From Eledone cirrhosa (lineage: Eukaryota): DNA of 64,000 nucleotides. The stretch is from assembly GCA_964016885.1 (NCBI GenBank), contig OZ024766.1:19964001-20028000 (forward strand), read 5' to 3'. Numbering within the stretch: position 1 is the stretch's first letter; each line of letters opens with the position of its first letter. The notes under the pieces were generated by a model. That model searched no databases and had not been told where the DNA came from. It saw only the letters and a list, made by a program, of their open reading frames with translations. Positions 19,910 to 55,740 of this stretch are shown one piece after another. Both the position numbers and the translations under genes were made by a program.

Positions 19910-20303
19910 CATCTATTAATGACATAGATGGCAACTTAAAGAGTGTCACAGTACTGAAATATGCAGATGAAACCAAGCTGTCCCTTGAGATAAAAAGGAC
20001 AGATCCTGAACACTATAGATCTGGACACAATGCAGCAATGGACCACGGACTGGCAACTCAAGCTGGCTGTGTACAAGTGTACGACCATGCATTTATCTAT
20101 CTATTTAAAGCTGTAAATAGCTATGGTGCGGCCACACTTAGACATTGCATCACCAGTCTGGAAGCCCTGTCTTGCTCAGAACATTGATCTGGAAATTGTT
20201 TAGAGACGTGCAACCAAGTGAATACGCTCCATCAACCATCTACCATACTCTGAATGCCTTGCCTCCCTGGGTATGGATACATTGAAGGTCCGACGTCTGG
20301 AAC
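19910..20303 (+). mobile_element. CR1-type LINE RT fragment, unit 3
   Basis: Copy of 5179-5575. Confidence 0.82.
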
Positions 20304-20748
20304 TTGCTACTTATTGCACCTGAGCATCAGCCACATATAAAATCTACGTTCTTAGATAGCTGGCCTGTGTTCCCAGTACGTCTGTTATGTACCCATAGTT
20401 TGTATTTGGGACATAAAATGGAATTTCTACCTACTCCTTTCCTACACACTGAACATGGCCATTTCCCAGAGGGCACCTGTGCCCTATTTTCCTTCCTACA
20501 TACTAGAACTTTAGTCTTAGACAAGTTAACTCTAAGGCCTTTTGATTCTAGGCCATGCTTCCATGTTTGGAATTTCTTATCTATATCAGCTGTTAGATAA
20601 TCTGTGTATAGAAGTTCCCATGGGCAGCCAGTCTTAAACTCCTCTGTTTTAGCCTGAAGGGCAATAATAAATAGGAGGGGGCTAAGGACTGAGCCTTGAT
20701 GAACACCAACTTTTATGCTAAATTCTTCACTGTATTCATTGCTAATTC
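20304..20748 (-). mobile_element. RTE-type LINE RT fragment, unit 3
   Basis: Same motifs; YADD mutated to YTDY. Confidence 0.88.
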
Positions 20749-30283: not shown

Positions 30284-31337
30284 GTATATATATATAAATA
30301 TTTATACATATGTATATATATATGTATATATATGAGCTCTTAAGACCAGTAAAATAACCTCTCTAGTGCCACAAACAATACACCCAGTCCTTGCTGTAAA
30401 GTGGTTGATGAGAGGAAAGGCATCCTAACAGCAAAGAAAAAAAATAGCGCTAAAATTATGGAAAACCCTACGAATAAAAATTTCTACTAATTGTGTCTAC
30501 AAGCCTAACACAAGTCATGTTAACGGGGTGCCTAGTGTAGACTTGTGTGAGAATCCTTTGACTGTTATCAAGCAGTTATAACACAGCACTTATCAAGTGC
30601 TGTTATCAAGCAGCTATAACACAGCACTTTTCCCCTTCCAGGTAGAAAGAACTGTTACTCAAGGAACTGTCAAGTTACACATCTCAGGTCTCAGACAATT
30701 ACCATGTTAGAATGTCATATAAGAATGAAGTTCTTGGGTAAAGGCTATAGGGCAGACCTACCAAGAGTTAGAAGGATTTAGTTTATAGAGCATCGTGGAA
30801 TATCACTGCTTACATTGGAGAGAATAACTCTGGACAGGAAAGTTGATATCTACAGTTTATCAATATAGAAATATAAAATTTCCAATGTTAAATCTATCTC
30901 TGTTTCTAAAGTATTCTCTATTATCTCATACTGTTTCTTTCTTATTTCAGAATATCAGATGACATTGGGATAAAATTAGATTTTAATCTTGAATACGTCC
31001 CCTCTATTTATCATCATTTCAAGAATAAAGGTTTTGATACGGAACTCATATAACACTGTTTATATAAATCTACGGCAGAATTAGTGTGAAATATTTCCTC
31101 AGAACTGTGTGTCTTGGAAACATTCTTGGAAAAGTATTGTTTCATCACCATCTGAAATATTTACAAGATGATTTTGAATCTTAACTAAACTTGGATCAGA
31201 AAGAAGTTTGCATCATCTTCAGATCTTGACTGAGATCACCGTTGCCGGAAATATAGCAAAAGAAATATCTTCAGGAATATAATATATAAAATAAGACAAG
31301 AATAACATCTGTAAATTCTGCCAAGGGAAGAAGAAAC

Positions 31338-32894
31338 ATGGAAACTAAATTGAGTGAAAAGAAGATTAAATGTGAAACATTGTCTAGAGATATGGCTATT
31401 CCAGCAGAGATGCCAAAGTCTAGAGGAGAGAAACCATATCACTGTGATGTCTGTGGTAAATCATTCTCTAAAAGTGGTCAGTTAATTCCACACAAACGTA
31501 CGCATACAGGAGACAAGCCATACCACTGCGATATCTGTGGTAAATCATTCTCTCAAAGTAGTCACTTAACTAGCCACAAACGTATGCATTCAGGAGACAA
31601 ACCATACCACTGTGGTATCTGTGGTAAATCATTCTCTGATAGTGGTACCTTAACTAGACACAAACGTATCCATACAGGAGAGAAGCCATACCACTGCGAT
31701 ATCTGTGGTAAATCTTTCTCTGAAAGTGGTTCCTTAACTTCACACTTACGTACCCATACAGGAGACAAGAGATACCAGTGTGATATCTGTGGTAAATCAT
31801 TGTCTCAAAGTAGTAACTTAACTAAACACAAACGTATACATACAGGAGAAAAGCCATACCACTGTGATATCTGTGGTAAATCATTCTCCGTAAGTAATAG
31901 CTTAACTAAACACTTACATACCCATACCCATACAGGAGACAAGCCATACCACTGTGATATCTGTGGTAAATCATTCTGTCATAGTAGTGATTTACCTAGA
32001 CACAAACGTATACATACAGGAGACAAGCCATACCACTGTGATATCTGTGGTAAATCATTCTCTCGAAGTAGTCACTTAACTTGCCACAAACGTATACATA
32101 CAGGAGACAAGCCATACCACTGTGATATCTGTGGTAAATCATTCTCTGATAGTAGTACCTTAACTAGACACAAACGTATACATACAGGAGACAGGCCATA
32201 CCACTGTGATATCTGTGGTAAATCATTCTCTGCAAGTGGTTCCTTAACTTCACACTTACGTACCCATACTGGAGACAAGCCATACCACTGTGATATCTGT
32301 GGTAAGTCATTCTCTCGAAGTAGTCACTTAACTTGCCACAAAAGTATACATACAGGAGACAAGCCGTACCACTGTGATATCTGTGGTAAATCATTCTCCG
32401 TAAGTAATAGCTTAACTAAACACTTACATACCCATACCCATAGTGGAGACAAGCCATACCACTGCGATATCTGTGGTAAATCATTCTCTCAAAGTAGCAA
32501 CTTAACTAGACACATACGTATACATACAGGAGACAAGCCATACCACTGTGAGATCTGTGGTAAATCATTCTCTGATAGTAGTACCTTAACTGTACACAAA
32601 TATACCCATACAGGAGACAAGCCATACCACTGTGATATCTGTGGTAAATCATTCTTTATAAGTAGTCAATTAACTATACACAAACGTATACATACAGGAG
32701 ACAAGCCATACCACTGTGATATCTGTGGTAAATCATTCTCTCAAAGTAGCAACTTAACTTGCCACAAACGTATACATACAGGAGACAAGCCATACCACTG
32801 TGATATCTGTGGTAAATCATTCTCTGTAAGTAGTACCTTAACTAAACACTTACGTACCCATACAGGAGACAAGCCATACCACTGCGATATCTGA
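31338..32894 (+). CDS. Poly-C2H2 zinc-finger protein, copy 5 (17 fingers)
   Basis: 518-aa ORF with two HTHTH-lengthened fingers. Ends at TGA in Cys2 of finger 18. Confidence 0.9.
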
Positions 32895-33119
32895 GGTAAA
32901 TCATTCTCTGTATCAAGTAGTTTAACTAGACACAAATATACCCATATGGGTGAGAACCCATAACGAAAAAAATATCTCGTCTGAAAATGGTGAATTAAAC
33001 ACAAATACATTCATATGAGAAGCCATGCCACTGTGGTATTCTCTTTCATTGCTGCATTAACTTCATGCAAACATATATATACTGGAGAAAAGCCATATCA
33101 CGGTAATATTTGTGGTTAA

Positions 33120-33236
<117 letters not shown>

Positions 33237-33832
33237 TAACATTTACAGGAGAGGAACTATATCACTGTGATGTCTGCAGTAAATAATTCTCTAAATGTTG
33301 TGGCTTCACTAGACACTAACATTTACAGGAGAGGAACTATATCACTGTGATGTCTGCAGTAAATCATTCTCTAAATGTTGTGGCTTCACTAGACACTAAC
33401 ATATACAGGAGAGGAACCATATCACTGTGATGTCTGTGGTAAATCTATTTTCTTGTAAATATTACTTAATGCAACACAATCAGACAAGATAAAAACCATA
33501 TCACTCACCCAAAATAGTGCCACCAATGTTAATATTTTGAATAAAACTGTTTTACTAAGAAATTCTTCTCCTTTCATTTTATTTGTAGAAGTTGTAACCA
33601 AGACTTGTGCTGACAAATCTGTATCGTTCAGAATTTACATACGCTATATATATGTGAATGTATGTGTGTAGAAATATGTGTCCCCTTTTATTTGTTGCAT
33701 ATGTAGTGGATAAATGTATTCTTTTGTGTATGAATGATAAAAAGAATAATGCCAGAATTGTGATGTTGACAATGTTTATTTTACAATAACAATATTCACT
33801 TGTTGCTACATTGAATATCAAGTAATAAAAAT

Positions 33833-34475
33833 TGTGACAGGAATTATCACTACATCAATTTGCTGACTAGCTACTTCGAGCTAGCGTGTATGTTGGTATC
33901 AATACAACGATACACGAGAAGTGATTCAACAGGAAGACAAAAGAATAGATAAAACCCAGAAGTAAACAGTATAATGAAACCTATTGAGTGTGTGTGTATC
34001 CTTAGTATTTGTTATTCCTCTCAAGGACTGCTGCTTTGGTCTCTATTGTTTGGTGGCGTAGTCTGTGGCCAAGAAGGTGAGAGCCAGTAAGGCCAGGAGA
34101 GAGAGATAGAGTAAAAGGCCTGTAGACGTCAGTAGAAGTCTGTAGACCCCAAGAGGTCTGTAGAATGTGAATGTTTCACATCATTATTCTCTTAAGGACT
34201 ACTGCTTCGTGGTCTGGCTGCTGGATTCCCTTTGTACTTGTATTTATAATAACCCTTTAGCTAGATGTGTATACAGGGTTGATTTATGAGTAGCCATGTG
34301 AGTTTCAGCTATCTTGAAGCTGGGGTCACAGGTCAAGTGGCATGTATGTTCATCATTGTTGTCTCTTGACAGGACAATGGTGGGAAACTCGCAACGATAG
34401 GTGGTCCCAGATGCGAGAACTTTTAGATTCGGTTTCGAATCTTCACCAGGTTATTTATAGGAGAATTCCGTTACA
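33833..34475 (-). mobile_element. Solo-LTR-like element, unit 5 (+10 bp)
   Basis: Copy of 4546-5178 with a CCTGTAGACG insertion. Confidence 0.6.
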
Positions 34476-34872
34476 CATCTATTAATGACATAGATGGCAA
34501 CTTAAAGAGTGTCACAGTACTGAAATATTCAGATGACACCAAGCTGTCCCTTGAGATAAAAAGGACAGATCCTGAACACTATAGATCTGGACACAATGCA
34601 GCAATGGACCACGGACTGGCAACTCAAGCTGGCTGTGTACAAGTGTACGACCATGCATTTATCTATCTATTTAAAGCTGTAAATAGCTATGGTGCGGCCA
34701 CACTTAGAAATTGCATCACCTGTCTGGAACCCCTATCTTGCTCAGAACATAGACCCCCTGGAAATTGTTTAGAGACGTGCAACCAAGTGAATACCCTGCA
34801 TCAAGCATCTACCATACTCTGAATGCCTTGCTTCCCTGGGTATGGATACATTGAAGGTCCGACGTCTGGAAC
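34476..34872 (+). mobile_element. CR1-type LINE RT fragment, unit 5
   Basis: Copy of 5179-5575. Confidence 0.82.
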
Positions 34873-35315
34873 TTGCTACTTATTGCACCTGAGCATCAGC
34901 CACATATAAAATCTACGTTCTTAGATAGCTGGCCTGTGTTCCCAGTACGTCTGTTATGTACCCATAGTTTGTATTGGACATAAAATGGAATTTCTACCTA
35001 CTCCTTTCCTACACACTGAACATGGCCATTTCCCAGAGGGCACCTGTGCCCTATTTTCCTTCCTACAAACTAGAACTTTAGTCTTAGACAAGTTAACTTT
35101 ACGGCCTTTTGATTCTAGGCCATGCTTCCATGTTTGGAATTTCTTATCTAGTTCAGCTGTTAGATCATCTGCGTATAGAAGTTCCCATGGGCAGCCAGTC
35201 TTAAACTCCTCTGTTTTAGCCTGAAGGGCAATAATAAATAGGAGGGGGCTAAGGACAGAGCCTTGATGAACACCAACTTTTATACTAAATTCTTCACTGT
35301 ATTCATTGGTAATTC
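34873..35315 (-). mobile_element. RTE-type LINE RT fragment, unit 5
   Basis: Nucleotide copy with a small deletion. Confidence 0.85.
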
Positions 35316-35346
<31 letters not shown>

Positions 35347-35554
35347 TTGTGTATATATATATACACATATTTATGTGTATGTATATATATATATATACAC
35401 ATATTTATGTGTATACATATATATATTTACTACACCACATTCTTCGCCTAAGTATAATTTGTAATGTTATTTACAAAAATAGGAATAAAATAATTATTGA
35501 GATATTCACTGCGAACCTGTACTTTCTCTATGTCTTTTTCGGACCTGGTGTGTG

Positions 35555-35585
<31 letters not shown>

Positions 35586-36385
35586 ATATAAAATATATAT
35601 ATATATATATACGTATTTATTTTTTTATCTATTTCACATTTGTGCTATTTGTAATGTTATGTATACAACCAGGAATAAAATAATTCTTCCCCTAACCCTT
35701 ACCATTCACTGCGAGACTGTACTTGCTGTTCGGCTCTTTGATAAATATATATACTACAGCATATTATTCGTCTAAGTATAATTTGTAATGTTATTTATAC
35801 AACCAGGAATAAAATAATTCTTACCCTAAACCTTACCATTCACTGCGAGACTCTACTGTCTTTACTTCCTGTTCCTGCCCCACCTACTTTCGTTCATTCA
35901 TTAATTTACTTCAAACTCAATCAATTCCTGCCTCTTTCTTCTATATTTTATATTTTCAAGGTATTTCAACAATTTTTATCTGTTTTACGTTTCTTTCATT
36001 AATTTATTCCGTTTTATATTTAAAATATTTCTGACTAATTTTTCCCGTATTTTCTGTCTAAATATTTATATACTTTATATATATAAAGTATATATATATA
36101 TATATATGTATAAAGTATAAATATATGTGTATATATATATGTATTCATGTATATATGCATATATATATATGTATATGTACTGTATATATACATACATACA
36201 TACTAGACAAGATAATACACCTTCACATCTGATATAAGAATACGGATAGGCTATGTAGCCGGTAAAACCAAAAGGGGTGAAACACATATTGCTATAGTAT
36301 TTCACCAGCTCTTCCTCAATCATTCATAGATGTGAGTGTATATAATAATTATTTTGTATAATGTATCTTTTTATAAATATATATG

Positions 36386-36767
36386 AGTAGATGTGTGTAT
36401 AACTCAGTAGATGTGTGTATAACTCAGTAGATGTGTGTAACTCTGTAGATGTGTGTGTAACTCAGTAGATGTGTGTATAACTCAGTAGATGTGTGTATAA
36501 CTCAGTAGATGTGTGTAACTCAGTAGATGTGTATAACTCAGTAGATGTGTGTAAGTCAGTAGATGTGTGTATAACTCAGTAGATGTGTGTATAACTCTGG
36601 AGATGTGTGTGTAACTCAGTAGATGTGTGTGTAACTCAGTAGATGTGTGTGTAACTCTGTAGATGTGTGTGTAACTCAAATAATTGTCCCCCACCTACAC
36701 TTTCGTCTCAAATAATTGTCCCCTACCCTCGCTTAGGTCTCAAATAATTTTCCCCCACCCTCACTCA
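36386..36767. repeat. Compound minisatellite, unit 6 (32-mer x3)
   Basis: As unit 1. Confidence 0.95.
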
Positions 36768-37972
36768 TTTAATTTTCAGATTTTTTACACCACCACCCCA
36801 CTCTTAATTCACCCCACCCATTTAAAATAAATAGGATGGGTTGTGGTCTCATTGTGTAAACTAAATGACTTATTCTGGTTTTCTATCTCTGGTGAAATTT
36901 ATATGTATATATATATATGTATAGATATATAAATATCTATACATATGTATATATATATAAATATTTATACATATGTATATATATATGTATGTATATATAT
37001 ATGTATATATATGAGCTCTTAAGACCAGTAAAATAACCGCTCTAGTGCCACAAACAATACACCCAGTCCTTGCTGTAAAGTGGTTGATGAGAGGAAAGGC
37101 ATCCAAACAGAAAAAAAAAAAAATAGCGCTAAAATTATGTAATCCCTACGAATATAAATTCCCACTAATTGTGTCTACAAGCCTAACACAAGTCATGTTA
37201 ACGGGGTGCCTAGTGTAGCCTTGTGTGAGAATCCTTTGACTGTTATCAAGCAATTACACAGCACTTTTCCCCTTCCAGGTAGAAAGAACTGTTACTCAAG
37301 GAACTGTCAAGTTACACATCTCAGGTCTCAGACAATTACCATGTTAGAATGTCATATAAGAATGAAGTTCTTGGGTAAAGGCTATAGAGCAGACCTCCCA
37401 AGAGTTAGAAGGATATAGTTTATAGAGCATCGTGGAATATCACTGCTTACATTGGAGAGAATAACTCTGGACAGGATAGTTGATATCTGGTTTATCAATA
37501 TAGAAATATAACATTTCCACTGTTAAATCTATCTCTGTTTCTAAAGTATTCTCTATTATCTCATACTGTTTCTTTCTTATTTCAGAATATCAGATGACAT
37601 TAGGATAAAATTATTTTTTAATCTTGAATACATCCCCTCTATTTATCATCATTTCAAGACTAAAGGTTTTGATACGGAACTCATATAACACTGTTTATAT
37701 AAATCTATGGCAGAATTAGTGTGAAATATTTCCTCAGAACTGTGCGTCTTGGAAAAATTCTTGGAAAAGTATTGTTTCATCAGCATCTGAAATATTTACA
37801 AGGTGATTTTGAATCTTAACTAAACTTGGATCAGAAAGAAGTTTGCATCATCTTCAGATCTTGACTGAGATCACCGTTGCCGGAAATATAGCAGAAGAAA
37901 TATCTTCAGGAATATAATATATAAAATAAGACAAGAATAACATCTGTAAATTCTGCCAAGGGAAGAAGAAAC

Positions 37973-39097
37973 ATGGAAACTAAATTGAGTGAGAAGAAGA
38001 TTAAATGTGAAACATTGTCTAGAGATATGGCTATTCCAGAAGAGATGTCAAAGTCTAGAGGAGAGAAACCATATCACTGTGATGTCTGTGGTAAATCATT
38101 CTCTGTTAGTAGTACCTTAACTAGCCACAAACATATACATACTGGAGACAAGCCATACCACTGCAATATCTGTGGTAAATCATTCTCTCAAAGTGGTCAG
38201 TTAATTCCACACAAACGAACACATACAGGAGACAAGCCATACCACTGCAATATCTGTGGTAAATCATTCTCTCAAAGTGGTCAGTTAATTCCACACTTAC
38301 GTACCCATACAGGAGACAAGCCATACCACTGTGATATCTGTGGTAAATCATTCTCTGTAAGTATTGCCTTAACTAGCCACAAACGTACCCATACAGGAGA
38401 CAATCCATATCATTGTGATATCTGTGGTAAATCATTCTCTGTTAGTAGTACCTTAACTACCCACAAACGTATACATACAGGCGACAAGCCATACCACTGT
38501 GATATCTGTGGTAAATCATTCTCTCGAAGTAGTCACTTGGCTGGACACAAACATATACATACAGGAGACAAGCCATACCACTGTGATATCTGTGGTAAAT
38601 CATTCTCTGTAAGTTGTAGCTTAACTAGACACAAACGTACCCATACAGGAGCCAAGCCATACCACTGTGATATCTGTGGTAAATCATTCTCTGTTAGTAG
38701 TACCTTAACTAGCCACAAACGTATACATACTGGAGACAAGCCATACCACTGTGATATCTGCGGTAAATTATTCTCTGCATCAAGTAATTTAACTACACAC
38801 AAATACACCCATACAGGAGACAAGCCATATCACTGTGATATCTGTGGTAAATCATTCTCTGATAGTAGTGCCTTAACTAGACACGAACGTATACATACAG
38901 GAGACAAGCCATACCACTGTGATATCTGTGGTAAATCATCCTCTGTAAGTGGTAACTTAACTAAACACTTACGTACCCATACAGGAGACAAGCCATACCA
39001 CTGTGATATCTGTGGTAAATCATTCTCCGATAGTAGTTACTTAACTAAACACTTACGTACCCATACAGGAGACAAGTCTTACCACTGCGATATCTGA
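37973..39097 (+). CDS. Poly-C2H2 zinc-finger protein, copy 6 (12 fingers)
   Basis: 374-aa ORF ending at TGA in a Cys2 codon. Confidence 0.9.
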
Positions 39098-40112
39098 GGT
39101 AAATCATTCTCTGTATCAAGTAGTTTAACTAGACACAAATATACCCATATGGGTGAGAACCCATAACGAAAAATATATCTCGTCTGAAAATGGTGAATTA
39201 AACACAAATACATTCATATGAGAAGCCATGCCACTGTGCTATTCTCTTTCATTGCTGCTTAACTTCATACAAACATATATATACTGGAGAAAAGCCAACC
39301 ACTGTAATATTTGTGGTAAATTGTTATCCATGATAGCTTGTTCAACTAGACACAAACATATACATACAGGAGAGAAACCATATCACTGTGATATCTGTGG
39401 GAAATCATTCTCTGAAATAACTCACTTCATTCGGCACTAACATTTACAGGAGAGGAACTATATCACTGTGATGTCTGCAGTAAATAATTCTCTAAATGTT
39501 GTGGCTTCACTAGACACTAACATATACAGGAGAGGAACCATATCACTGTAATGTCTGCAGTAAATCATTGTCTAAATGTTGTGGCTTCACTACACACTAA
39601 CATTTACAGGAGAGGAACTATATCACTGTGATGTCTGTGCTAAATCATTCTCTAAATGTTGGGGCTTCACTAGACACTAACATATAGAGGAGAGGAACCA
39701 TATCACTGTGATGTCTGTGGTAAATCATTCTCTTGTAAAGGTTACTTAATGCAACACAATCAGACAAGATAAAAACCATACCACTCACCCAAAATTGTGC
39801 CACCAATGTTAATATTTTGAATAAAACTGTTTTACTAAGAAATTCTTCTCCTTTCATTTTATTTGTAGAAGTTGTAACCAAGACTTGTGCTGACAAATCT
39901 GTATCGTTCAGAATTTACACACACTATATATATGTGAATGTATGTGTCTAGAAATGTGTGTCCCCTTTTGTTTGTTGCATATATAGTGGATAAACGTATT
40001 CTTCTGTGTATGAATGATAAAAAGAATAATGCCAGAATTGTGATGTTGACAATGTTTATTTTACAATAACAACATTAACTTCTTGCTACATTGAATATCA
40101 AGTAATAAAAAT

Positions 40113-40745
40113 TGTGACAGGAATTATCACTACATCAATTTGCTGACTAGCTACTTCGAGCTAGCGTGTATGTATGTATCAATACAACGATACAATAGAA
40201 GTGATTCAACAGGAAGACAAAAGAATAGATAAAACACAGAAGTAAACAGTATAATGAAACCTACTGAGTGTGTGTGTATCCTTAGTATTTGTTATTCCTC
40301 TCAAGGACTGCTGCTTTGGTCTCTCCTGTTTGGTGGTGTAGTCTGTGGCCAAGAAGGTGAGAGCCAGTAAGGCCAGGAGAGAGAGATAGAGTAAAAGGTC
40401 AGTAGAAGTCTGTAGACCCCAAGAGGTCTGTAGAATGTGAATGTTTCACATCATTATTCTCTTAAGGACTACTGCTTCGTGGTCTGGCTGCTGGATTCCC
40501 TTTGTACTTGTATTTATAATAACCCTATAGCTAGATGTGTATACAGGGTTGATTTATGAGTAGCCATGTGAGTTTCAACTATCTTGAAGCTGGGGTCACA
40601 GGTCAAGTGGCATGTATGTTCATCATTGTTGTCTCTTGACAGGACAATGGTGGGAAACTCGCAACGATAGGTGGTCCCAGATGCAAGAACTTTTAGATTC
40701 GGTTTCGAATCTTCGCCAGGTAATTTATAGGAGAATTCCGTTACA
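40113..40745 (-). mobile_element. Solo-LTR-like element, unit 6
   Basis: Copy of 4546-5178. Confidence 0.6.
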
Positions 40746-41139
40746 CATCTATTAATGACATAGATGGCAACTTAAAGAGTGTCACAGTACTGAAATATGC
40801 AGATGACATCAAGCTGTCCCTTGAGATAAAAAGGACAGATCCTGAACTCTATAGATCTGGACACAATGCAGCAATGGACCATGGACTGGCAACTAAAGCT
40901 GGCTGTGTACAAGTGTACGAGCATTCATTTATTTATCTATTTAAAGCTGTAAATAGCTATGGTGCGGCCACACTTAGAATTTGCATCACCAGTCTGGAAC
41001 CCCTGTCTTGCTCAGAACATTGATCTGGAAATTGTTTAGAGACGTGCAACCAAGTGAATACGCTCCATCAAGCATCTACCATACTCTGAATGCCTTGCCT
41101 CCCTGGGTATGGATACACTGAAGGTATGACGTCTGGAAC
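40746..41139 (+). mobile_element. CR1-type LINE RT fragment, unit 6
   Basis: Copy of 5179-5575. Confidence 0.82.
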
Positions 41140-41584
41140 TTGCTACTTATTGCACCTGAGCATCAGCCACATATAAAATCTACGTTCTTAGATAGCTGGC
41201 CTGTGTTCCCAGTACTTCTATTATGTACCCATAGTTTGTATTTGGGACATAAAATGGAATTTCTACCTACTCCTTTCCTACACACTGAACATGGCCATTT
41301 CCCAGAGGGCACCTGTGCCCTATTTTCCTTCCTACAAACTAGAACTTTAGTCTTAGACAAGTTAACTTTAAGGCCTTTTGATTCTAGGCCATGCTTCCAT
41401 GTTTGGAATTTCTTATCTAGTTCAGCTGTTAGATCATCTGCGTATAGAAGTTCCCATGGGCAGCCAGTCTTAAACTCCTCTGTTTTAGCCTGAAGGGCAA
41501 TAATAAATAGGAGGGGGCTAAGGACTGAGCCTTGATGAACACCAACTTTTATACTAAATTCTTCACTGTATTCATTGCTAATTC
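41140..41584 (-). mobile_element. RTE-type LINE RT fragment, unit 6
   Basis: ORF 41163..41627. Confidence 0.88.
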
Positions 41585-41772
41585 TATATATATACACATA
41601 TTTGTGTGTATATATATATATACACATATTTATGTGTATGTATATATATATTTACTACACCACATTCTTCGTCTAAGTGTAATTTGTAATGTTATTTACA
41701 AAACTAGGAATAAAATAATTCTTAAGATATTCACTGCGAACCTGTACTCTCTCTATATCTTTTTTGGACCTG

Positions 41773-41814
<42 letters not shown>

Positions 41815-42377
41815 GTATATATATTTTTTATCTATTTCACATTTGTGCTATTTGGAATGTTATGTATACAACCAGGAATAAAATAATTCTTCCCCTAACT
41901 CTTACCATTCACTGCGAGACTGTACTTGCTGTTCGGCCCTGGGATATGAATATATATATATATGTATATATATATTTACTACAGCACATTATTTGTCTCA
42001 GTATAGTTTGTAATGTTATTTATACAACCAGGAATAAAATAATTCTTACTCTAAACCTTACCATTCACTGCGAGACTCTACTGGCTTTACTTCCTGTTCC
42101 TGCCCCACCTACTTTCGTTCATTCATTAATTTACTTCAAATTCAATCAATTCCTGTCTCTTTCTTCTATATTTTATATTTTCAAGGTATTTCAACAACTT
42201 TTATCTGTTTTACGTTTCTTTCATTAATTTATTCCGTTTTATATTTAAAATATTTCTGACTATTTTTTCCCGTATTTTCTGTCTAAATATTTATATATAC
42301 TTTATATATATAAAGTATATATATATGTATATATATATATAAAGTATATATAAATATGTATATATATATATATAAAG

Positions 42378-42409
<32 letters not shown>

Positions 42410-42764
42410 ATATATATATATAAAGTATATATATATATATAAAGTATATAAATATATATAAAGTATATATATATATATAAATATGTATATATAAATATAT
42501 GTCTATATATATATATGTATTCATGTATATATGCATATATATGTGTGTATATATATTGTATATATACATACATACATTATACATACTAGACAAGATAATA
42601 CACCTTCACATCTGATATAAGAATACGGATAGGCTATGTAGCCGGTAAAACCAAAAGGGGTGAAACACATATTGCTATAGTGTTTCACCAGCTCTTCCTC
42701 AATCATTCATAGATGTGAGTGTATATAATAATTATTTTGTATAATGTGTCTATAAATATATATG

Positions 42765-43340
42765 AGTAGATGTGTGTATAACTCTGTAGATGTGTGTATA
42801 ACTCTGTAGATGTGTGTGTAACTCTGTAGATGTGTGTATAACTCAGTAGATGTGTGTGTAACTCAGTAGATGTGTGTATAACTCAGTAGATGTGTGTGTA
42901 ACTCAGTAGATGTGTGTGTAACTCAGTAGATGTGTGTGTAACTCAGTAGATGTGTGTATAACTCAGTAGATGTGTGTATAACTCAGTAGATGTGTGTAAC
43001 TCAGTAGATGTGTATAACTCTGTAGATGTGTGTGTAACTCAGTAGATGTGTGTATAACTCAGTAGATGTGTGTGTAACTCAGTAGATGTGTGTAACTCTG
43101 TAGATGTGTGTGTAACTCAGTAGATGTGTGTGTAACTCAGTAGATGCGTGTGTAACTCTGTAGATGTGTATGTAACTCAGTAGATGTGTGTGTAACTCTG
43201 TAGATGTGTGTGTAGCTCAAATAATTGTCCCCCGCCCTCACTTTCGTCTCAAATAATCGTTCCCCACCCTCACTTTGGTCTCAAATAATTGTCCCCTACC
43301 CTCGCTTAGGTCTCAAATAATTTTCCCCCACCCTCACTCA
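42765..43340. repeat. Compound minisatellite, unit 7 (32-mer x4)
   Basis: As unit 1. Confidence 0.95.
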
Positions 43341-43525
43341 TTTAATTTTCAGATTTTTTACACCACCACCCCACTCTTGATTCACCCCACCCATTTAAAA
43401 TAAATAGGATGGGTTGTGGTCTCATTATGTAAACTAAATGACTAATTCTGGTTTTCTATCTCTGGTGAAATTTATATGTATATATATATATGTATAGATA
43501 TATAAATATCTATGCATATGTATAT

Positions 43526-43801
43526 CATCATCATCATCATCATCATTATCACCGTTTTACGTCCGTTCTTCCACGCTAGCATGGGTTAGACGGGTTGTCC
43601 TGTTGTGGGCAGTGTCTGGTCGGCTGACCATGCCTTGCTCATACAGGAACTCATTTGGCTTGATTTCTACAGCTGGATGCCCTTCCTAACACCAACCTCA
43701 TTTACAGTGAGTGCTGGGTGCTTTTTCGTGGCGCCTACACGTCCACTTTACAGTGTTGGCTGGGTGCTTTTTTGCCGTGGCACCTCCACGACCACCTTGC
43801 G
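43526..43801 (-). mobile_element. SINE-like element, unit 7
   Basis: Copy of 1086-1358. Confidence 0.7.
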
Positions 43802-44828
43802 GTATATATATATAAATATTTATACATATGTATATATATATGTATGTATATATATATGTATATATATGAGCTCTTAAGACCAGTAAAATAACCTCTCTAG
43901 TGACACAAACAATACACCCAGTCCTTGCTGTAAAGTGGTTTATGTGGAAAGGCATCCAAACAGCAAAGAAAAAAAATAGCGCTAAAATTATGGAAAGCCC
44001 TACAAATTAAAATTTCTACTAATTGTGTCTACAAGCCTAACACAAGTCATGTTAACGGGGTGCCTAGTGTAGCCTTGTGTGAGAATCCTTTGACTGTTAT
44101 CAAGCAATTACACAGCACTTTTCCCCTTCCAGGTAGAAAGAACTGTTACTCAAGGAACTGTCAAGTTACACATCTCAGGTCTCAGACAATTACCATGTTA
44201 GAGTGTCATATAAGAATGAAGTTCTTGGGTAAAGGCTATAGGGCAGACCTCCCAAAAGTTAGAAGGATATAGTTTATAGAGCATCTTGGAATACCACTGC
44301 TTACATTGGAGAGAATAACTCTGGACAGGAAAGTTGATATCTACAGTTTATCAATATAGAAATATAAAATTTCCAATGTTAAATCTATCTCTGTTTCTAA
44401 AGTATTCTCTATTATCTCATACTGTTTCTTTCTTATTTCAGAATATCAGATGACATTGGGATAAAATTATTTTTTAATCTTGAATACATCCCCTCTATTT
44501 ATCATCATTTCAAGAATAAAGGTTTTGATACGGAACTCATATAACACTGTTTATATAAATCTACGGCAGAATTAGTGTGAAATATTTCCTCAGAACTGTG
44601 TGTCTTGGAAAAATTCTTGGAAAAGTATTGTTTCATCACCATCTGAAATATTTACAAGATGATTTTGAATCTTAACTAAACTTGGATCAGAAAGAAGTTT
44701 GCATCATCTTCAGATCTTGACTGAGATCACCGTTGCCGGAAATATAGCAAAAGAAATATCTTCAGGAATATAATATATAAAATAAGACAAGAATAACATC
44801 TGTAAATTCTGCCAAGGGAAGAAGAAAC

Positions 44829-46385
44829 ATGGAAACTAAATTGAGTGAAAAGAAGATTAAATGTGAAACATTGTCTAGAGATATGGCTATTCCAGCAGAG
44901 ATGCCAAAGTCTAGAGGAGAGAAACCATATCACTGTGATGTCTGTGGTAAATCATTCTCTAAAAGTGGTCAGTTAATTCCACACAAACGTACGCATACAG
45001 GAGACAAGCCATACCACTGCGATATCTGTGGTAAATCATTCTCTCAAAGTAGTCACTTAACTAGCCACAAACGTATGCATTCAGGAGACAAACCATACCA
45101 CTGTGGTATCTGTGGTAAATCATTCTCTGATAGTGGTACCTTAACTAGACACAAACGTATCCATACAGGAGAGAAGCCATACCACTGCGATATCTGTGGT
45201 AAATCTTTCTCTGAAAGTGGTTCCTTAACTTCACACTTACGTACCCATACAGGAGACAAGAGATACCAGTGTGATATCTGTGGTAAATCATTGTCTCAAA
45301 GTAGTAACTTAACTAAACACAAACGTATACATACAGGAGAAAAGCCATACCACTGTGATATCTGTGGTAAATCATTCTCCGTAAGTAATAGCTTAACTAA
45401 ACACTTACATACCCATACCCATACAGGAGACAAGCCATACCACTGTGATATCTGTGGTAAATCATTCTGTCATAGTAGTGACTTACCTAGACACAAACGT
45501 ATACATACAGGAGACAAGCCATACCACTGTGATATCTGTGGTAAATCATTCTCTCGAAGTAGTCACTTAACTTGCCACAAACGTATACATACAGGAGACA
45601 AGCCATACCACTGTGATATCTGTGGTAAATCATTCTCTGATAGTAGTACCTTAACTAGACACAAACGTATACATACAGGAGACAGGCCATACCACTGTGA
45701 TATCTGTGGTAAATCATTCTCTGCAAGTGGTTCCTTAACTTCACACTTACGTACCCATACTGGAGACAAGCCATACCACTGTGATATCTGTGGTAAATCA
45801 TTCTCTCGAAGTAGTCACTTAACTTGCCACAAAAGTATACATACAGGAGACAAGCCGTACCACTGTGATATCTGTGGTAAATCATTCTCCGTAAGTAATA
45901 GCTTAACTAAACACTTACATACCCATACCCATAGTGGAGACAAGCCATACCACTGCGATATCTGTGGTAAATCATTCTCTCAAAGTAGCAACTTAACTAG
46001 ACACATACGTATACATACAGGAGACAAGCCATACCACTGTGAGATCTGTGGTAAATCATTCTCTGATAGTAGTACCTTAACTGTACACAAATATACCCAT
46101 ACAGGAGACAAGCCATACCACTGTGATATCTGTGGTAAATCATTCTTTATAAGTAGTCAATTAACTATACACAAACGTATACATACAGGAGACAAGCCAT
46201 ACCACTGTGATATCTGTGGTAAATCATTCTCTCAAAGTAGCAACTTAACTTGCCACAAACGTATACATACAGGAGACAAGCCATACCACTGTGATATCTG
46301 TGGTAAATCATTCTCTGTAAGTAGTACCTTAACTAAACACTTACGTACCCATACAGGAGACAAGCCATACCACTGCGATATCTGA
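44829..46385 (+). CDS. Poly-C2H2 zinc-finger protein, copy 7 (17 fingers)
   Basis: 518-aa ORF; translation appears identical to copy 5. Confidence 0.9.
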
Positions 46386-46610
46386 GGTAAATCATTCTCT
46401 GTATCAAGTAGTTTAACTAGACACAAATATACCCATATGGGTGAGAACCCATAACGAAAAAAATATCTCGTCTGAAAATGGTGAATTAAACACAAATACA
46501 TTCATATGAGAAGCCATGCCACTGTGCTATTCTCTTTCATTGCTGCATTAACTTCATGCAAACATATATATACTGGAGAAAAGCCATATCACGGTAATAT
46601 TTGTGGTTAA

Positions 46611-46727
<117 letters not shown>

Positions 46728-47323
46728 TAACATTTACAGGAGAGGAACTATATCACTGTGATGTCTGCAGTAAATAATTCTCTAAATGTTGTGGCTTCAC
46801 TAGACACTAACATATACAGGAGAGGAACTATATCACTGTGATGTCTGCAGTAAATCATTCTCTAAATGTTGTGGCTTCACTAGACACTAACATATACAGG
46901 AGAGGAACCATATCACTGTGATGTCTGTGGTAAATCTATTTTCTTGTAAATATTACTTAATGCAACACAATCAGACAAGATAAAAACCATATCACTCACC
47001 CAAAATAGTGCCACCAATGTTAATATTTTGAATAAAACTGTTTTACTAAGAAATTCTTCTCCTTTCATTTTATTTGTAGAAGTTGTAACCAAGACTTGTG
47101 CTGACAAATCTGTATCGTTCAGAATTTACATACGCTATATATATGTGAATGTATGTGTGTAGAAATATGTGTCCCCTTTTATTTGTTGCATATGTAGTGG
47201 ATAAATGTATTCTTTTGTGTATGAATGATAAAAAGAATAATGCCAGAATTGTGATGTTGACAATGTTTATTTTACAATAACAATATTCACTTGTTGCTAC
47301 ATTGAATATCAAGTAATAAAAAT

Positions 47324-47966
47324 TGTGACAGGAATTATCACTACATCAATTTGCTGACTAGCTACTTCGAGCTAGCGTGTATGTTGGTATCAATACAACG
47401 ATACACGAGAAGTGATTCAACAGGAAGACAAAAGAATAGATAAAACCCAGAAGTAAACAGTATAATGAAACCTATTGAGTGTGTGTGTATCCTTAGTATT
47501 TGTTATTCCTCTCAAGGACTGCTGCTTTGGTCTCTCTTGTTTGGTGGCGTAGTCTGTGGCCAAGAAGGTGAGAGCCAGTAAGGCCAGGAGAGAGAGATAG
47601 AGTAAAAGGCCTGTAGACGTCAGTAGAAGTCTGTAGACCCCAAGAGGTCTGTAGAATGTGAATGTTTCACATCATTATTCTCTTAAGGACTACTGCTTCG
47701 TGGTCTGGCTGCTGGATTCCCTTTGTACTTGTATTTATAATAACCCTATAGCTAGATGTGTATACAGGGTTGATTTATGAGTAGCCATGTGAGTTTCAGC
47801 TATCTTGAAGCTGGGGTCACAGGTCAAGTGGCATGTATGTTCATCATTGTTGTCTCTTGACAGGACAATGGTGGGAAACTCGCAACGATAGGTGGTCCCA
47901 GATGCGAGAACTTTTAGATTCGGTTTCGAATCTTCACCAGGTTATTTATAGGAGAATTCCGTTACA
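47324..47966 (-). mobile_element. Solo-LTR-like element, unit 7 (+10 bp)
   Basis: Same insertion as unit 5. Confidence 0.6.
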
Positions 47967-48363
47967 CATCTATTAATGACATAGATGGCAACTTAAAGAG
48001 TGTCACAGTACTGAAATATTCAGATGACACCAAGCTGTCCCTTGAGATAAAAAGGACAGATCTTGAACACTATAGATCTGGACACAATGCAGCAATGGAC
48101 CACGGACTGGCAACTCAAGCTGGCTGTGTACAAGTGTACGACCATGCATTTATCTATCTATTTAAAGCTGTAAATAGCTATGGTGCGGCCACACTTAGAA
48201 ATTGCATCACCTGTCTGGAACCCCTATCTTGCTCAGAACATTGACCTCCTGGAAATTGATTAGAGACGTGCAACCAAGTGAATACCCTGCATCAAGCATC
48301 TACCATACTCTGAATGCCTTGCTTCCCTGGGTATGGATACATTGAAGGTCCGACGTCTGGAAC
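47967..48363 (+). mobile_element. CR1-type LINE RT fragment, unit 7
   Basis: Copy of 5179-5575. Confidence 0.82.
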
Positions 48364-48802
48364 TTGCTACTTATTGCACCTGAGCATCAGCCACATATAA
48401 AATCTACGTTCTTAGATAGCTGGCCTGTGTTCCCAGTACGTCTGTTATGTACCCATAGTTTGTATTGGACATAAAATGGAATTTCTACCTACTCCTTTCC
48501 TACACACTGAACATGGCCATTTCCCAGAGGGCACCTGTGCCCTATTTTCCTTCCTACAAACTAGAACTTTAGTCTTAGACAAGTTAACTTTACGGCCTTT
48601 TGATTCTAGGCCATGCTTCCATGTTTGGAATTTCTTATCTAGTTCAGCTGTTAGATCATCTGTGTATAGAAGTTCCCATGGGCAGCCTGTCTTAAACTCC
48701 TCTGTTTTAGCCTGAAGGGCAATAATAAATAGGAGGGGGCTAAGGACAGAGCCTTGATGAACACCAACTTTTATACTAAATTCTTCACTGTATTCATTGG
48801 TA

Positions 48803-48806
<4 letters not shown>
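48364..48806 (-). mobile_element. RTE-type LINE RT fragment, unit 7
   Basis: ORF 48445..48897; YTDD. Confidence 0.85.
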
Positions 48807-48841
<35 letters not shown>

Positions 48842-49049
48842 TTGTGTATATATATATACACATATTTATGTGTATGTATATATATATATATACACATATT
48901 TATGTGTATACATATATATATTTACTACACCACATTCTTCGCCTAAGTATAATTTGTAATTTTATTTACAAAAATAGGAATAAAATAATTATTGAGATAT
49001 TCACTGCGAACCTGTACTTTCTCTATGTCTTTTTCGGACCTGGTGTGTG

Positions 49050-49080
<31 letters not shown>

Positions 49081-49582
49081 ATATAAAATATATATATATA
49101 TATATACGTATTTATTTTTTTATCTATTTCACATTTGTGCTATTTGTAATGTTATGTATACAACAAGGAATAAAATAATTCTTCCCCTAACCCTTACCAT
49201 TCACTGCGAGACTGTACTTGCTGTTCGGCTCTTTGATAAATATATATACTACAGCATATTATTCGTCTAAGTATAATTTGTAATGTTATTTATACAACCA
49301 GGAATAAAATAATTCTTACCCTAAACCTTACCATTCACTGCGAGACTCTACTGTCTTTACTTCCTGTTCCTGCCCCACCTACTTTCGTTCATTCATTAAT
49401 TTACTTCAAACTCAATCAATTCCTGTCTCTTTCTTCTATATTTTATATTTTCAAGGTATTTCAACAATTTTTATCTGTTTTACGTTTCTTTCATTAATTT
49501 ATTCCGTTTTATATTTAAAATATTTCTGACTAATTTTTCCCGTATTTTCTGTCTAAATATTTATATACTTTATATATATAAA

Positions 49583-49627
<45 letters not shown>

Positions 49628-49923
49628 ATATATATATATATATATGTATAAAGTATAAATATATGTGTATATATATATGTATTCATGTATATATGCATAT
49701 ATATATATGTATATGTACTGTATATATACATACATACATACTAGACAAGATAATACACCTTCACATCTGATATAAGAATACGGATAGGCTATGTAGCCGG
49801 TAAAACCAAAAGGGGTGAAACACATATTGCTATAGTATTTCACCAGCTCTTCCTCAATCATTCATAGATGTGAGTGTATATAATAATTATTTTGTATAAT
49901 GTATCTTTTTATAAATATATATG

Positions 49924-50483
49924 AGTAGATGTGTGTATAACTATGTACATGTGTATATAACGCAGTAGATGTGTGTATAACTCAGTAGATGTGTGTAACT
50001 CAGTAGATGTGTGTATAACTCTGTAGATGTGTGTGTAACTCAGTAGATGTGTGTATAACTCAGTAGATGTGTGTATAACTCAGTAGATGTGTGTAACTCA
50101 GTAGATGTGTGTGTAACTCAGTAGATGTGTGTGTAACTCAGTAGATGTGTGTATAACTCAGTAGATGTGTGTATAACTCAGTAGATGTGTGTATAACTCA
50201 GTAGATGTGTGTAACTCAGTAGATGTGTATAACTCAGTAGATGTGTGTAAGTCAGTAGATGTGTGTATAACTCAGTAGATGTGTGTATAACTCTGTAGAT
50301 GTGTGTGTAACTCAGTAGATGTGTGTGTAACTCAGTAGATGTGTGTCTAACTCAGTAGATGTGTGTGTAACTCTGTAGATGTGTGTGTAACTCAAATAAT
50401 TGTCCCCCACCTACACTTTCGTCTCAAATAATTGTCCCCTACCCTCGCTTAGGTCTCAAATAATTTTCCCCCACCCTCACTCA
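49924..50483. repeat. Compound minisatellite, unit 8 (32-mer x3)
   Basis: As unit 1. Confidence 0.95.
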
Positions 50484-51688
50484 TTTAATTTTCAGATTTT
50501 TTACACCACCACCCAACTCTTAATTCACCCCACCCATTTAAAATAAATAGGATGGGTTGTGGTCTCATTGTGTAAACTAAATGACTTATTCTGGTTTTCT
50601 ATCTCTGGTGAAATTTATATGTATATATATATATGTATAGATATATAAATATCTATACATATGTATATATATATAAATATTTATACATATGTATATATAT
50701 ATGTATGTATATATATATGTATATATATAAGCTCTTAAGACCAGTAAAATAACCGCTCTAGTGCCACAAACAATACACCCAGTCCTTGCTGTAAAGTGGT
50801 TGATGAGAGGAAAGGCATCCAAACAGAAAAAAAAAAAAATAGCGCTAAAATTATGTAATCCCTACGAATATAAATTCCCACTAATTGTGTCTACAAGCCT
50901 AACACAAGTCATGTTAACGGGGTGCCTAGTGTAGCCTTGTGTGAGAATCCTTTGACTGTTATCAAGCAATTACACAGCACTTTTCCCCTTCCAGGTAGAA
51001 AGAACTGTTACTCAAGGAACTGTCAAGTTACACATCTCAGGTCTCAGACAATTACCATGTTAGAATGTCATATAAGAATGAAGTTCTTGGGTAAAGGCTA
51101 TAGAGCAGACCTCCCAAGAGTTAGAAGGATATAGTTTATAGAGCATCGTGGAATATCACTGCTTACATTGGAGAGAATAACTCTGGACAGGATAGTTGAT
51201 ATCTGGTTTATCAATATAGAAATATAACATTTCCACTGTTAAATCTATCTCTGTTTCTAAAGTATTCTCTATTATCTCATACTGTTTCTTTCTTATTTCA
51301 GAATATCAGATGACATTAGGATAAAATTATTTTTTAATCTTGAATACATCCCCTCTATTTATCATCATTTCAAGACTAAAGGTTTTGATACGGAACTCAT
51401 ATAACACTGTTTATATAAATCTATGGCAGAATTAGTGTGAAATATTTCCTCAGAACTGTGCGTCTTGGAAAAATTCTTGGAAAAGTATTGTTTCATCAGC
51501 ATCTGAAATATTTACAAGGTGATTTTGAATCTTAACTAAACTTGGATCAGAAAGAAGTTTGCATCATCTTCAGATCTTGACTGAGATCACCGTTGCCGGA
51601 AATATAGCAGAAGAAATATCTTCAGGAATATAATATATAAAATAAGACAAGAATAACATCTGTAAATTCTGCCAAGGGAAGAAGAAAC

Positions 51689-53065
51689 ATGGAAACTAAA
51701 TTGAGTGAGAAGAAGATTAAATGTGAAACATTGTCTAGAGATATGGCTATTCCAGAAGAGATGTCAAAGTCTAGAGGAGAGAAACCATATCACTGTGATG
51801 TCTGTGGTAAATCATTCTCTGTTAGTAGTACCTTAACTAGCCACAAACATATACATACTGGAGACAAGCCATACCACTGCAATATCTGTGGTAAATCATT
51901 CTCTCAAAGTGGTCAGTTAATTCCACACAAACGAACACATACAGGAGACAAGCCATACCACTGCGATATCTGTGGTAAATCATTCTCTCAAAGTATTCAC
52001 TTAACTAGACACAAACGTATACATACAGGAGACAAGCCATACCACTGTGATATCTGTGGTAAATCATTCTCTGTAAGTAGTGCCTTAACTAGCCACAAAC
52101 GTACCCATACAGGAGACAATCCATATCATTGTGATATCTGTGGTAAATCATTCTCTGTTAGTAGTACCTTAACTACCCACAAACGTATACATACAGGCGA
52201 CAAGCCATACCACTGTGATATCTGTGGTAAATCATTCTCTCGAAGTAGTCACTTGGCTAGACACAAACATATACATACAGGAGACAAGCCATACCACTGT
52301 GATATCTGTGGTAAATCATTCTCTGTTAGTAGTACCTTAACTATACACAAACGTACCCATACTGGAGACAAGCCATACCACTGTGATATCTGCGGTAAAT
52401 TATTCTCTGCATCAAGTAATTTAACTACACACAAATACACCCATACAGGAGACAAGCCATATCACTGTGATATCTGTGGTACATCATTCTCTCGAAGTAA
52501 TCACTTAACTAGACACAAACGTATACATACAGGAGACAAGCCATACCACTGTGATATCTGTGGTAAATCATTCTCTGATAGTAGTACCTTAACTATACAC
52601 AAACGTACCCATACTGGAGACAAGCCATACCACTGTGATATCTGTGGTAAATTATTCTCTGCATCAAATAATTTAACTACACACAAATATACCCATACAG
52701 GAGACAAGCCATACCACTGTGATATCTGTGGTAAATCATTCTTTATAAGTAGTCACTTAACTATACACAAACGTATACATACAGGAGACAAGCCATACCA
52801 CTGTGATATCTGTGGTAAATCATTCTCTGATAGTAGTGCCTTAACTAGACACGAACGTATACATACAGGAGACAAGCCATACCACTGTGATATCTGTGGT
52901 AAATCATCCTCTGTAAGTGGTAACTTAACTAAACACTTACGTACCCATACAGGAGACAAGCCATACCACTGTGATATCTGTGGTAAATCATTCTCCGATA
53001 GTAGTTACTTAACTAAACACTTACGTACCCATACAGGAGACAAGTCTTACCACTGCGATATCTGA
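51689..53065 (+). CDS. Poly-C2H2 zinc-finger protein, copy 8 (15 fingers)
   Basis: 458-aa ORF. Same ends as copy 6 but a different central finger set. Confidence 0.9.
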   Translation: METKLSEKKIKCETLSRDMAIPEEMSKSRGEKPYHCDVCGKSFSVSSTLTSHKHIHTGDKPYHCNICGKSFSQSGQLIPHKRTHTGDKPYHCDICGKSFSQSIHLTRHKRIHTGDKPYHCDICGKSFSVSSALTSHKRTHTGDNPYHCDICGKSFSVSSTLTTHKRIHTGDKPYHCDICGKSFSRSSHLARHKHIHTGDKPYHCDICGKSFSVSSTLTIHKRTHTGDKPYHCDICGKLFSASSNLTTHKYTHTGDKPYHCDICGTSFSRSNHLTRHKRIHTGDKPYHCDICGKSFSDSSTLTIHKRTHTGDKPYHCDICGKLFSASNNLTTHKYTHTGDKPYHCDICGKSFFISSHLTIHKRIHTGDKPYHCDICGKSFSDSSALTRHERIHTGDKPYHCDICGKSSSVSGNLTKHLRTHTGDKPYHCDICGKSFSDSSYLTKHLRTHTGDKSYHCDI

Positions 53066-55552: not shown

Positions 55553-55740
55553 TATATATATACACATATTTGTGTGTATATATATATATACACATATTTA
55601 TGTGTATGTATATATATATTTACTACACCACATTCTTCGTCTAAGTGTAATTTGTAATGTTATTTACAAAACTAGGAATAAAATAATTCTTAAGATATTC
55701 ACTGCGAACCTGTACTCTCTCTATATCTTTTTTGGACCTG

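What the first reader, a model, noticed from the sequence alone, without database searches (positions are those of the whole stretch)
37973..53065. Copies 6 and 8: near-identical flanks but a rewritten finger core, while neighbours 5 and 7 are unchanged
Seen: blocks ~31130-43200 and ~44620-57150 form a very recent two-gene duplication. Copies 5 and 7 encode the same 518 aa; I saw synonymous changes at 31991/45482 and 32306/45797. Copies 6 and 8 share the first two and last three fingers but differ in the middle: VSST,QSGQ,QSGQ,VSIA,VSST,RSSH,VSCS,VSST,ASSN,DSSA,VSGN,DSSY versus VSST,QSGQ,QSIH,VSSA,VSST,RSSH,VSST,ASSN,RSNH,DSST,ASNN,ISSH,DSSA,VSGN,DSSY. Inference: finger turnover far outpaces point mutation and is gene-specific. 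If the two blocks are mis-assembled haplotypes, this would instead be PRDM9-grade allelic variation.
Basis: partly seen in the sequence, partly recalled or inferred. Interest (0 to 1): 0.75.

Follow-up and report, generated by a model that had tools for sequence, protein, structure and literature searches.

The report
Zinc-finger genes swapping fingers and flanks
Two sister zinc-finger genes in a tandem cluster, probably from an octopus, differ by a few finger gains, losses and swaps although the DNA on either side is identical; this likely comes from ordinary recombination among the cluster's near-identical repeats rather than from one gene evolving unusually fast.

Summary
Copies 5 and 7 encode the same 518 aa (two synonymous changes). 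Copies 6 and 8 have 12 and 15 fingers between flanks with no substitution over 4.4 kb. But the core is not rewritten: 9 of copy 6's 12 fingers have collinear partners in copy 8 within 1 nt. The difference reduces to about 3-5 finger-level events (one is an exact four-finger deletion join) plus two nonsynonymous point changes. Flank identity is no clock here: the nine units are a recombination patchwork, and copies 3 and 4 share a 2,164-bp exact 3' flank with unrelated arrays. Gene-specific acceleration is only marginal (P about 0.02-0.09, post hoc). Best reading: a young, likely octopod, effector-less C2H2 cluster reshuffled by unequal exchange and conversion between fingers and between genes. 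It works like PRDM9's coding minisatellite but is not PRDM9 (no KRAB or SET found). Tandem versus allelic status stays open, because the public runs were fragmented contigs and RAD reads. The scan's earlier notes held nothing similar. Known kind of process; I found no finger-level description for cephalopods.

The parts
37973..39097 (+). Copy 6 ORF, 374 aa: 33-aa leader plus 12 C2H2 fingers
51689..53065 (+). Copy 8 ORF, 458 aa: same leader plus 15 C2H2 fingers
31338..32894 (+). Copy 5 ORF, 518 aa, 17 fingers
44829..46385 (+). Copy 7 ORF, 518 aa, same protein as copy 5 (2 synonymous changes)
38249..38830 (+). Variable core of copy 6; all 6/8 array differences lie here
51965..52798 (+). Variable core of copy 8
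52460..52795 (+). Fingers 8.9-8.12, absent from copy 6; the start of 8.9 joined to the rest of 8.13 reproduces finger 6.10 exactly (join after nt 3-22)
38240..38323 (+). Finger 6.3: 5' part copies finger 2, with an HLRT tail; stands where copy 8 has the QSIH finger 8.3 (51956-52039), 11 nt apart
38576..38659 (+). Finger 6.7 (VSCS): 1 nt from finger 4.13 of copy 4, with the GAKP linker found only in these two fingers; likely exchanged between genes
37014..38248 (+). 5' flank plus fingers 1-2 of copy 6, exactly equal to 50730-51964 (1,235 bp)
38831..41811 (+). Last fingers plus 3' flank of copy 6, exactly equal to 52799-55779 (2,981 bp, longest exact repeat in the window)
31122..37013 (+). Older part of the block (copy 5 unit versus 44613-50729): 19 substitutions, many private to one side, plus 5 micro/minisatellite indels
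43200..44612 (+). Junction between the blocks: mosaic of exact matches to upstream regions of copies 1, 2, 3, 4, 5 and 6/8; no N gap
18420..20583 (+). Internal control: 3' flank of copy 3, exactly equal to that of copy 4 (26028-28191, 2,164 bp) although their arrays are unrelated
41163..41651 (-). Reverse-transcriptase fragment (LINE-type) carried in the repeated unit; counterparts seen after copies 1-4, 7 and 8

Best explanation
Copies 6 and 8 are sister genes in a cluster of nine near-identical zinc-finger-only units, and they likely differ because out-of-register recombination among 84-bp fingers and among 7-kb gene units deleted, replaced and imported a few fingers and separately re-homogenised their flanks. 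Shown: the differences reduce to a four-finger deletion with an exact join, a replaced finger 3, an extra copy-4-type finger with an altered neighbour, and two nonsynonymous point changes at helix positions +2 and +6; the units' flanks are a mosaic. Inferred: copy 8 is closer to the ancestral array and copy 6 carries most changes; the core is older than its flanks (either the 3-kb 3' flank was converted recently, or one core was imported in one event from a sister copy or allele); the mechanism is unequal crossover or gene conversion; the proteins bind DNA, so the changes would alter target sites; the organism is an octopod.
For: 9 of 12 fingers collinear at 0-1 nt. Mosaic parse explains copy 6 from copy 8 plus other copies with 7 segments and 5 mismatches, against 8 segments and 16 mismatches the other way. 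Exact deletion join. The extra fingers of 8 are not fresh duplicates: 8.7-8.9 versus 8.10-8.12 differ by 1, 3 and 7 nt, and 8.9 has no match under 5 nt among the other 148 fingers. Flanks recombine between units: four-gamete incompatibility clusters by position (permutation p below 1/5000 for 5' flanks of 9 units, 0.005 for 3' flanks of 8 of 9 units). Copies 3 and 4 share 2,164 bp exactly; upstream of 7 equals upstream of 2 for 431 bp; upstream of 5 equals upstream of 1 for 677 bp. Fingers form one pool: non-contact distance is 0.079 within genes and 0.084 between genes; copies 1 and 5 share a 236-bp exact multi-finger run. With 6/8 dated like 5/7 (0.32%), a pooled rate over three pairs expects 1.5 events in 5/7 (0 seen, P 0.22), 1.2 in 6/8 (4 seen, P 0.035) and 4.3 in 2/4 (3 seen). 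No N gap in the window. Octopus species give the only hit spanning the leader (48% identity over 92% of the query) and the best credibly named RT hits (62-63%).
Against: The flanks are identical on both sides of the core; the 5' side alone has P 0.019 under the 5/7 rate, so two conversion tracts, or one import of the core, must be assumed. 6/8 still has more events than expected (P 0.035). Both point differences in the core are nonsynonymous at contact positions. Event counts are minimal parses and depend on the penalties I chose. No read evidence confirms that both copies lie on one chromosome. Only 64 kb was available, so a possible donor outside the window cannot be seen.
Confidence: 0.6

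Rival explanations
1. 5-6 and 7-8 are the two alleles of one locus placed in tandem by the assembler (heterotype false duplication), so 6 and 8 are alleles that differ by several fingers.
For: Divergence of 0-0.3% in patches is what alleles could show (inference). False duplications on the same scaffold persist in long-read assemblies (PMC9516828, passages). No read test succeeded.
Against: [quoted passage not shown] The junction is a 1.4-kb mosaic that differs from the upstream region of 5 by 15 of 400 bp in one window and matches copy 2's upstream region. The cluster shows other genuine recent copying (2/4, 3/4). A true duplication by unequal crossover between homologues would look the same in sequence.
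Confidence: 0.2
2. The whole 6/8 gene pair is as young as its flanks, and its array was remodelled several times since, by a gene-specific mutational hotspot or by selection for new binding specificity.
For: 0 substitutions in 4,410 bp and only one 2-bp microsatellite indel around the core. At that age 3 or more independent events have P 0.003 under the pooled rate. Both point changes hit helix positions +2 and +6. Contact codons show pN/pS 1.75 against 0.50 elsewhere across 97 distinct fingers (descriptive only, since conversion violates the tree assumptions, as PMC5519329 section 25 notes).
Against: Identical flanks also sit beside unrelated arrays (3/4). One import of an older core explains all differences at once. 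The contact-site diversity share is the same in all nine genes (0.42-0.53; copy 6 0.50, copy 5 0.50). Pair 2/4 shows the same kinds of change.
Confidence: 0.15
3. One core is a chimeric or collapsed consensus made from reads of several paralogues.
For: The family is highly repetitive; public contigs shatter into pieces of about 60 bp over the array.
Against: Both cores keep frame and 84-bp register. Fingers 8.3 and 8.9 carry private variants. The longest exact repeat is 2,981 bp, which long reads can span. The frameshift in copies 2 and 4 is identical in both, so it is inherited, not noise.
Confidence: 0.05

Closest known systems
Coleoid cephalopod C2H2-ZNF expansion (PMC9068888, PMC12513265, PMC10547256; passages read)
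   Same: Large, clustered, lineage-specific C2H2 gene family; octopus ZNFs were among those examined for predicted binding to transposons. Closest leader and RT hits here are Octopus proteins.
   Different: The passages I saw treat gene counts, clusters, phylogeny and expression. Two of the three papers have no occurrence of 'gene conversion', and I saw no finger-level turnover between sister copies. The exact proteins are not in the protein collection (0 of 5).
Young mouse KRAB-ZFP clusters (Chr4, Chr2, Chr12; PMC11952569, passages read)
   Same: Multi-gene block duplications, scrambled self-similarity, fingerprint arrays mostly unique to each strain, non-allelic recombination proposed as driver, retroelement pieces carried within duplicated blocks.
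   Different: No KRAB box here; units are only about 7 kb, with a single coding ORF behind a 33-aa leader; invertebrate lineage; population variation not measured here.
PRDM9 zinc-finger array as coding minisatellite (PMC3890296 passages; PMC5519329 sections)
   Same: 84-bp units, high unit similarity (84-89% within each array), turnover by duplication, deletion and conversion, diversity concentrated at helix contact positions (share 0.42-0.53, against median 0.30 and maximum 0.51 in 123 of 128 fetched ZNF proteins).
   Different: No KRAB, SSXRD or PR/SET domain found. Multi-gene cluster with exchange between genes, not one locus. Share is below human (0.687) and mouse (0.910) PRDM9, though within the range of some full-length PRDM9s; the paper's choice of positions may differ from mine. 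Allelic diversity untested.

Membership tests
Tandem C2H2 (Kruppel-type) zinc-finger genes | Tandem 28-aa C-x2-C-x12-H-x3-H fingers with TGEKP-type linkers | tested here: met
   Pfam zf-C2H2 E 2.9e-69 (12 stretches) and 3.8e-85 (15 stretches); regex scan
Tandem C2H2 (Kruppel-type) zinc-finger genes | Expressed and binds DNA | tested here: inconclusive
   No RNA holder on record; binding not testable with these tools
Octopod C2H2-ZNF expansion | Cephalopod origin of the sequence | tested here: inconclusive
   Best leader-spanning hit is Octopus sinensis at 48%; RT fragment 62-63% to O. bimaculoides and O. vulgaris; but the full-length search returned generic, mostly vertebrate ZNFs at 37-59%. 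Likely, not proven.
Octopod C2H2-ZNF expansion | Genes in tandem clusters | tested here: met
   Nine co-oriented units at 6.6-7.6 kb spacing
PRDM9 | PR/SET methyltransferase domain | tested here: not met
   None among the Pfam families shown (best 25 per ORF); N-terminal parts of 123 fetched ZNFs, including three SET-bearing ones, give no tblastn hit outside the finger arrays. A distant exon outside the window is not excluded.
PRDM9 | KRAB and SSXRD domains | tested here: not met
   KRAB-bearing N-termini give no hit outside the arrays; SSXRD was not searched with its own query; the leader is only 33 aa
PRDM9 | Minisatellite-like array with diversity at contact residues | tested here: met
   Share 0.42-0.53; non-contact nucleotide identity 89-94%
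PRDM9 | High allelic diversity of the array within a species | tested here: inconclusive
   Runs X1, X2, X3 and X21 gave no piece bridging the core
KRAB-ZFP clusters | KRAB box upstream of the finger exon | tested here: not met
KRAB-ZFP clusters | Growth by multi-gene segmental duplication and non-allelic recombination | tested here: met
   (subject to the allelic rival for the 5-6/7-8 block)
Heterotype false duplication | Assembly gap between the duplicates | tested here: not met
   0 N in the window
Heterotype false duplication | Haploid read depth and discordant pairs | not testable with these tools
   Only Logan contigs and RAD-seq reads were offered

The most novel reading that the evidence does not exclude
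The cluster works as a shared finger library: dozens of effector-less octopod C2H2 genes trade single fingers and finger blocks so often that individuals of one species carry different DNA-binding repertoires, a PRDM9-like allelic turnover spread over a whole gene family, possibly tracking transposons.
Probability: 0.3. Interest if true: 0.7.

Novelty: new member of a known kind. Interest (0 to 1): 0.38.

Why it matters
It gives a base-resolution example of how the large cephalopod zinc-finger family changes its predicted DNA-reading code: by a few recombination events per gene, including exchange between genes, not by slow substitution. It also shows that flank identity cannot date genes in such clusters. 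If the arrays proved polymorphic among individuals, the proposed transposon arms race for non-KRAB invertebrate zinc-finger genes would become testable by amplicon sequencing of a few loci.

Tried and rejected
Whole genome: none held. Exact protein look-up: 0 of 5 window proteins in the collection. Full-length homologue search returned only generic ZNFs. Sequencing runs: 23 listed, best share of words 0.45, no RNA holder listed. Laying 4 of the 23 runs on 51450-53550 at 97% likeness gave contigs of mostly about 60 bp, none spanning the core, no joint matching the four-finger skip, and other letters at 6 places. That is no evidence for or against either core; those runs may be other individuals or other paralogues, and summed contig depth is not copy number. 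A plain MAFFT alignment of the two arrays put all three missing fingers at the end and inflated the differences, so I used finger-wise distances and a mosaic parse. The first 3'-flank anchor matched only 2 units, so that table was discarded and redone (8 of 9 units). The idea that the 19 differences between units 5 and 7 are mostly imported was checked and rejected: many are private, on both sides. PRDM9 and KRAB-ZFP membership rejected. Literature: searches listed no paper on finger-level turnover or conversion in cephalopod C2H2 clusters, judged from titles and abstract starts; the library lacks most subscription papers, and the 2015 octopus genome paper was not held (recalled only). Earlier scan notes: nothing by place or sequence, and six unrelated notes by words. 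No structure or complex jobs were run; they do not bear on the question.
Full report
Setting. The window (35% GC, no N) holds nine co-oriented units spaced 6.6-7.6 kb apart. Each has one ORF of a 33-aa leader and 12-22 tandem C2H2 fingers, followed by degenerate fingers, a LINE-type reverse-transcriptase fragment on the minus strand, and micro- and minisatellites. The only homologue spanning the leader is an Octopus sinensis ZNF (48%), and the best credibly named RT hits are O. bimaculoides and O. vulgaris (62-63%). The source is therefore likely an octopod; this is inferred, and the full-length search returned only generic ZNFs. No whole genome is held.

Observation. Around the 6/8 core the DNA is identical over 1,235 bp on the left and 2,981 bp on the right; the next differences are a 2-bp microsatellite indel and a substitution at 42006.

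How much of the core differs. Nine of copy 6's twelve fingers have collinear partners in copy 8 at 0-1 nt. A register-keeping mosaic parse builds copy 6 from copy 8 plus other copies with 7 segments and 5 mismatches; the reverse needs 8 segments and 16 mismatches. The changes are four. (i) Fingers 8.9-8.12 are missing in 6, and the start of 8.9 joined to the rest of 8.13 reproduces 6.10 exactly. (ii) Finger 3 is replaced by a finger-2-derived hybrid. (iii) Copy 6 has an extra VSCS finger, 1 nt from finger 4.13 and sharing a linker found only in those two fingers, next to a finger 4 nt from 8.7. (iv) There are two nonsynonymous point changes, at helix +2 (6.4/8.4) and +6 (6.6/8.6). That is about 3-5 finger-level events, inferred to lie mostly on the copy-6 side. 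The extra fingers of copy 8 are not fresh duplicates (1, 3 and 7 nt between its two triplets).

Why the flanks are no clock. Within the same block, the 5/7 segment has 19 substitutions in 5,892 bp while the 6/8 flanks have none in 4,410 bp (p 2.7e-5, post hoc boundaries). Many of the 19 are private and fall on both copies. So the block has parts of different age. Across units, nearest neighbours switch along the flank and incompatible sites cluster by position (permutation p below 1/5000 for 5' flanks, 0.005 for 3' flanks). Copies 3 and 4 share 2,164 bp of exact 3' flank with unrelated arrays and 5' flanks 35 of 941 columns apart. The 1.4 kb between the two blocks is a mosaic of several units' upstream regions. 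Fingers too form one pool: non-contact distance is 0.079 within genes and 0.084 between genes.

Rate and gene specificity. If the 6/8 core is as old as 5/7, all 3, 4 or 5 events falling in 6/8 has P 0.087, 0.038 or 0.017 under an equal per-finger rate. Pooling with pair 2/4 (about 3 events, 17 substitutions in 2,311 bp of 3' flank) gives 1.5 expected for 5/7 (0 seen), 1.2 for 6/8 (4 seen, P 0.035) and 4.3 for 2/4 (3 seen). This is a marginal excess in a pair picked because it stood out. If instead the gene is as young as its flanks, 3 or more independent events have P 0.003, which calls for either one import of an older core or real acceleration. Against my reading: both flanks are identical (the 5' side alone has P 0.019), and both point changes hit contact positions.

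Tandem or allelic. There is no gap, the junction is a mosaic and the longest exact repeat is 3 kb, all of which favour a real tandem pair; false duplications were most often gap-separated in PMC9516828 (passages). But a duplication by unequal crossover between homologues looks the same in sequence as two joined haplotypes. The read test failed to decide: of 23 runs listed I laid 4; the contigs were fragmented, none bridged the core, and they showed other letters in the flanks.

Comparison with known systems. The arrays behave like PRDM9's coding minisatellite (PMC3890296, passages). The share of amino-acid diversity at positions -1, +2, +3 and +6 is 0.42-0.53 in all nine genes, against a median of 0.30 and a maximum of 0.51 in 123 of 128 fetched ZNF proteins, a biased convenience set, and 0.687 and 0.910 for human and mouse PRDM9 (PMC5519329 Table 1; positions may differ). 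They are not PRDM9 or KRAB-ZFPs: N-terminal parts of 123 ZNFs, including KRAB, SCAN and SET bearers, find nothing outside the arrays. The closest system is the young mouse KRAB-ZFP cluster, with block duplications, non-allelic recombination and strain-unique fingerprints (PMC11952569, passages). The cephalopod C2H2 expansion is well known (PMC9068888; PMC12513265; PMC10547256; passages only). Searches listed no finger-level study of it.

Verdict. Alleles placed in tandem 0.2, gene-specific acceleration 0.15, chimeric consensus 0.05. New member of a known kind; interest 0.38. The boldest reading still open is a family-wide, population-polymorphic finger library (probability 0.3, interest 0.7).

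Noticed in passing
window 18420-20583 and 26028-28191: Copies 3 and 4 share 2,164 bp of exact 3' flank although their arrays and 5' flanks are unrelated: a very recent conversion or chimeric unit.
   Followed up: yes
window 9025-10990 and 24074-25955: Copies 2 and 4 are a second sister pair (22 and 21 fingers, about 3 finger-level differences). Both carry the same 1-nt insertion after finger 17 or 16, which leaves the last five fingers out of frame.
   Followed up: partly
window 16636-18360: Copy 3 has an internally amplified array (eight ISSH fingers in QSSN-ISSH-ISSH runs) and a stop codon in the linker before its last finger.
   Followed up: partly
window 2812-3047 and 32433-32668: Copies 1 and 5 share an exact 236-bp multi-finger run, within a five-finger block (1.3-1.7 and 5.11-5.15), at different places in their arrays.
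   Followed up: partly
window 31863-31931, 32373-32441 and the equivalents in copy 7: Two fingers of copies 5 and 7 have a 6-nt HT duplication (HLHTHTH) that keeps the frame.
   Followed up: no
window about 43523-43846: A 324-bp insertion beginning with an ATC repeat lies upstream of copies 1, 2, 3, 4, 5 and 7 but not 6, 8 and 9; possibly a short mobile element.
   Followed up: partly
window 36390-36680, 42765-43215 and equivalents: A roughly 20-bp minisatellite in the units' spacers varies in length even between the youngest pairs (118, 40 and 20 bp indels between units 5 and 7).
   Followed up: partly
window 39098-39780 and equivalents: The ORFs are followed by several degenerate fingers beyond the stop codon, conserved among units as a decayed array tail.
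   Followed up: no
window 62720-63795: About 1 kb of TA-rich simple repeat follows unit 9, where the unit pattern breaks off.
   Followed up: no
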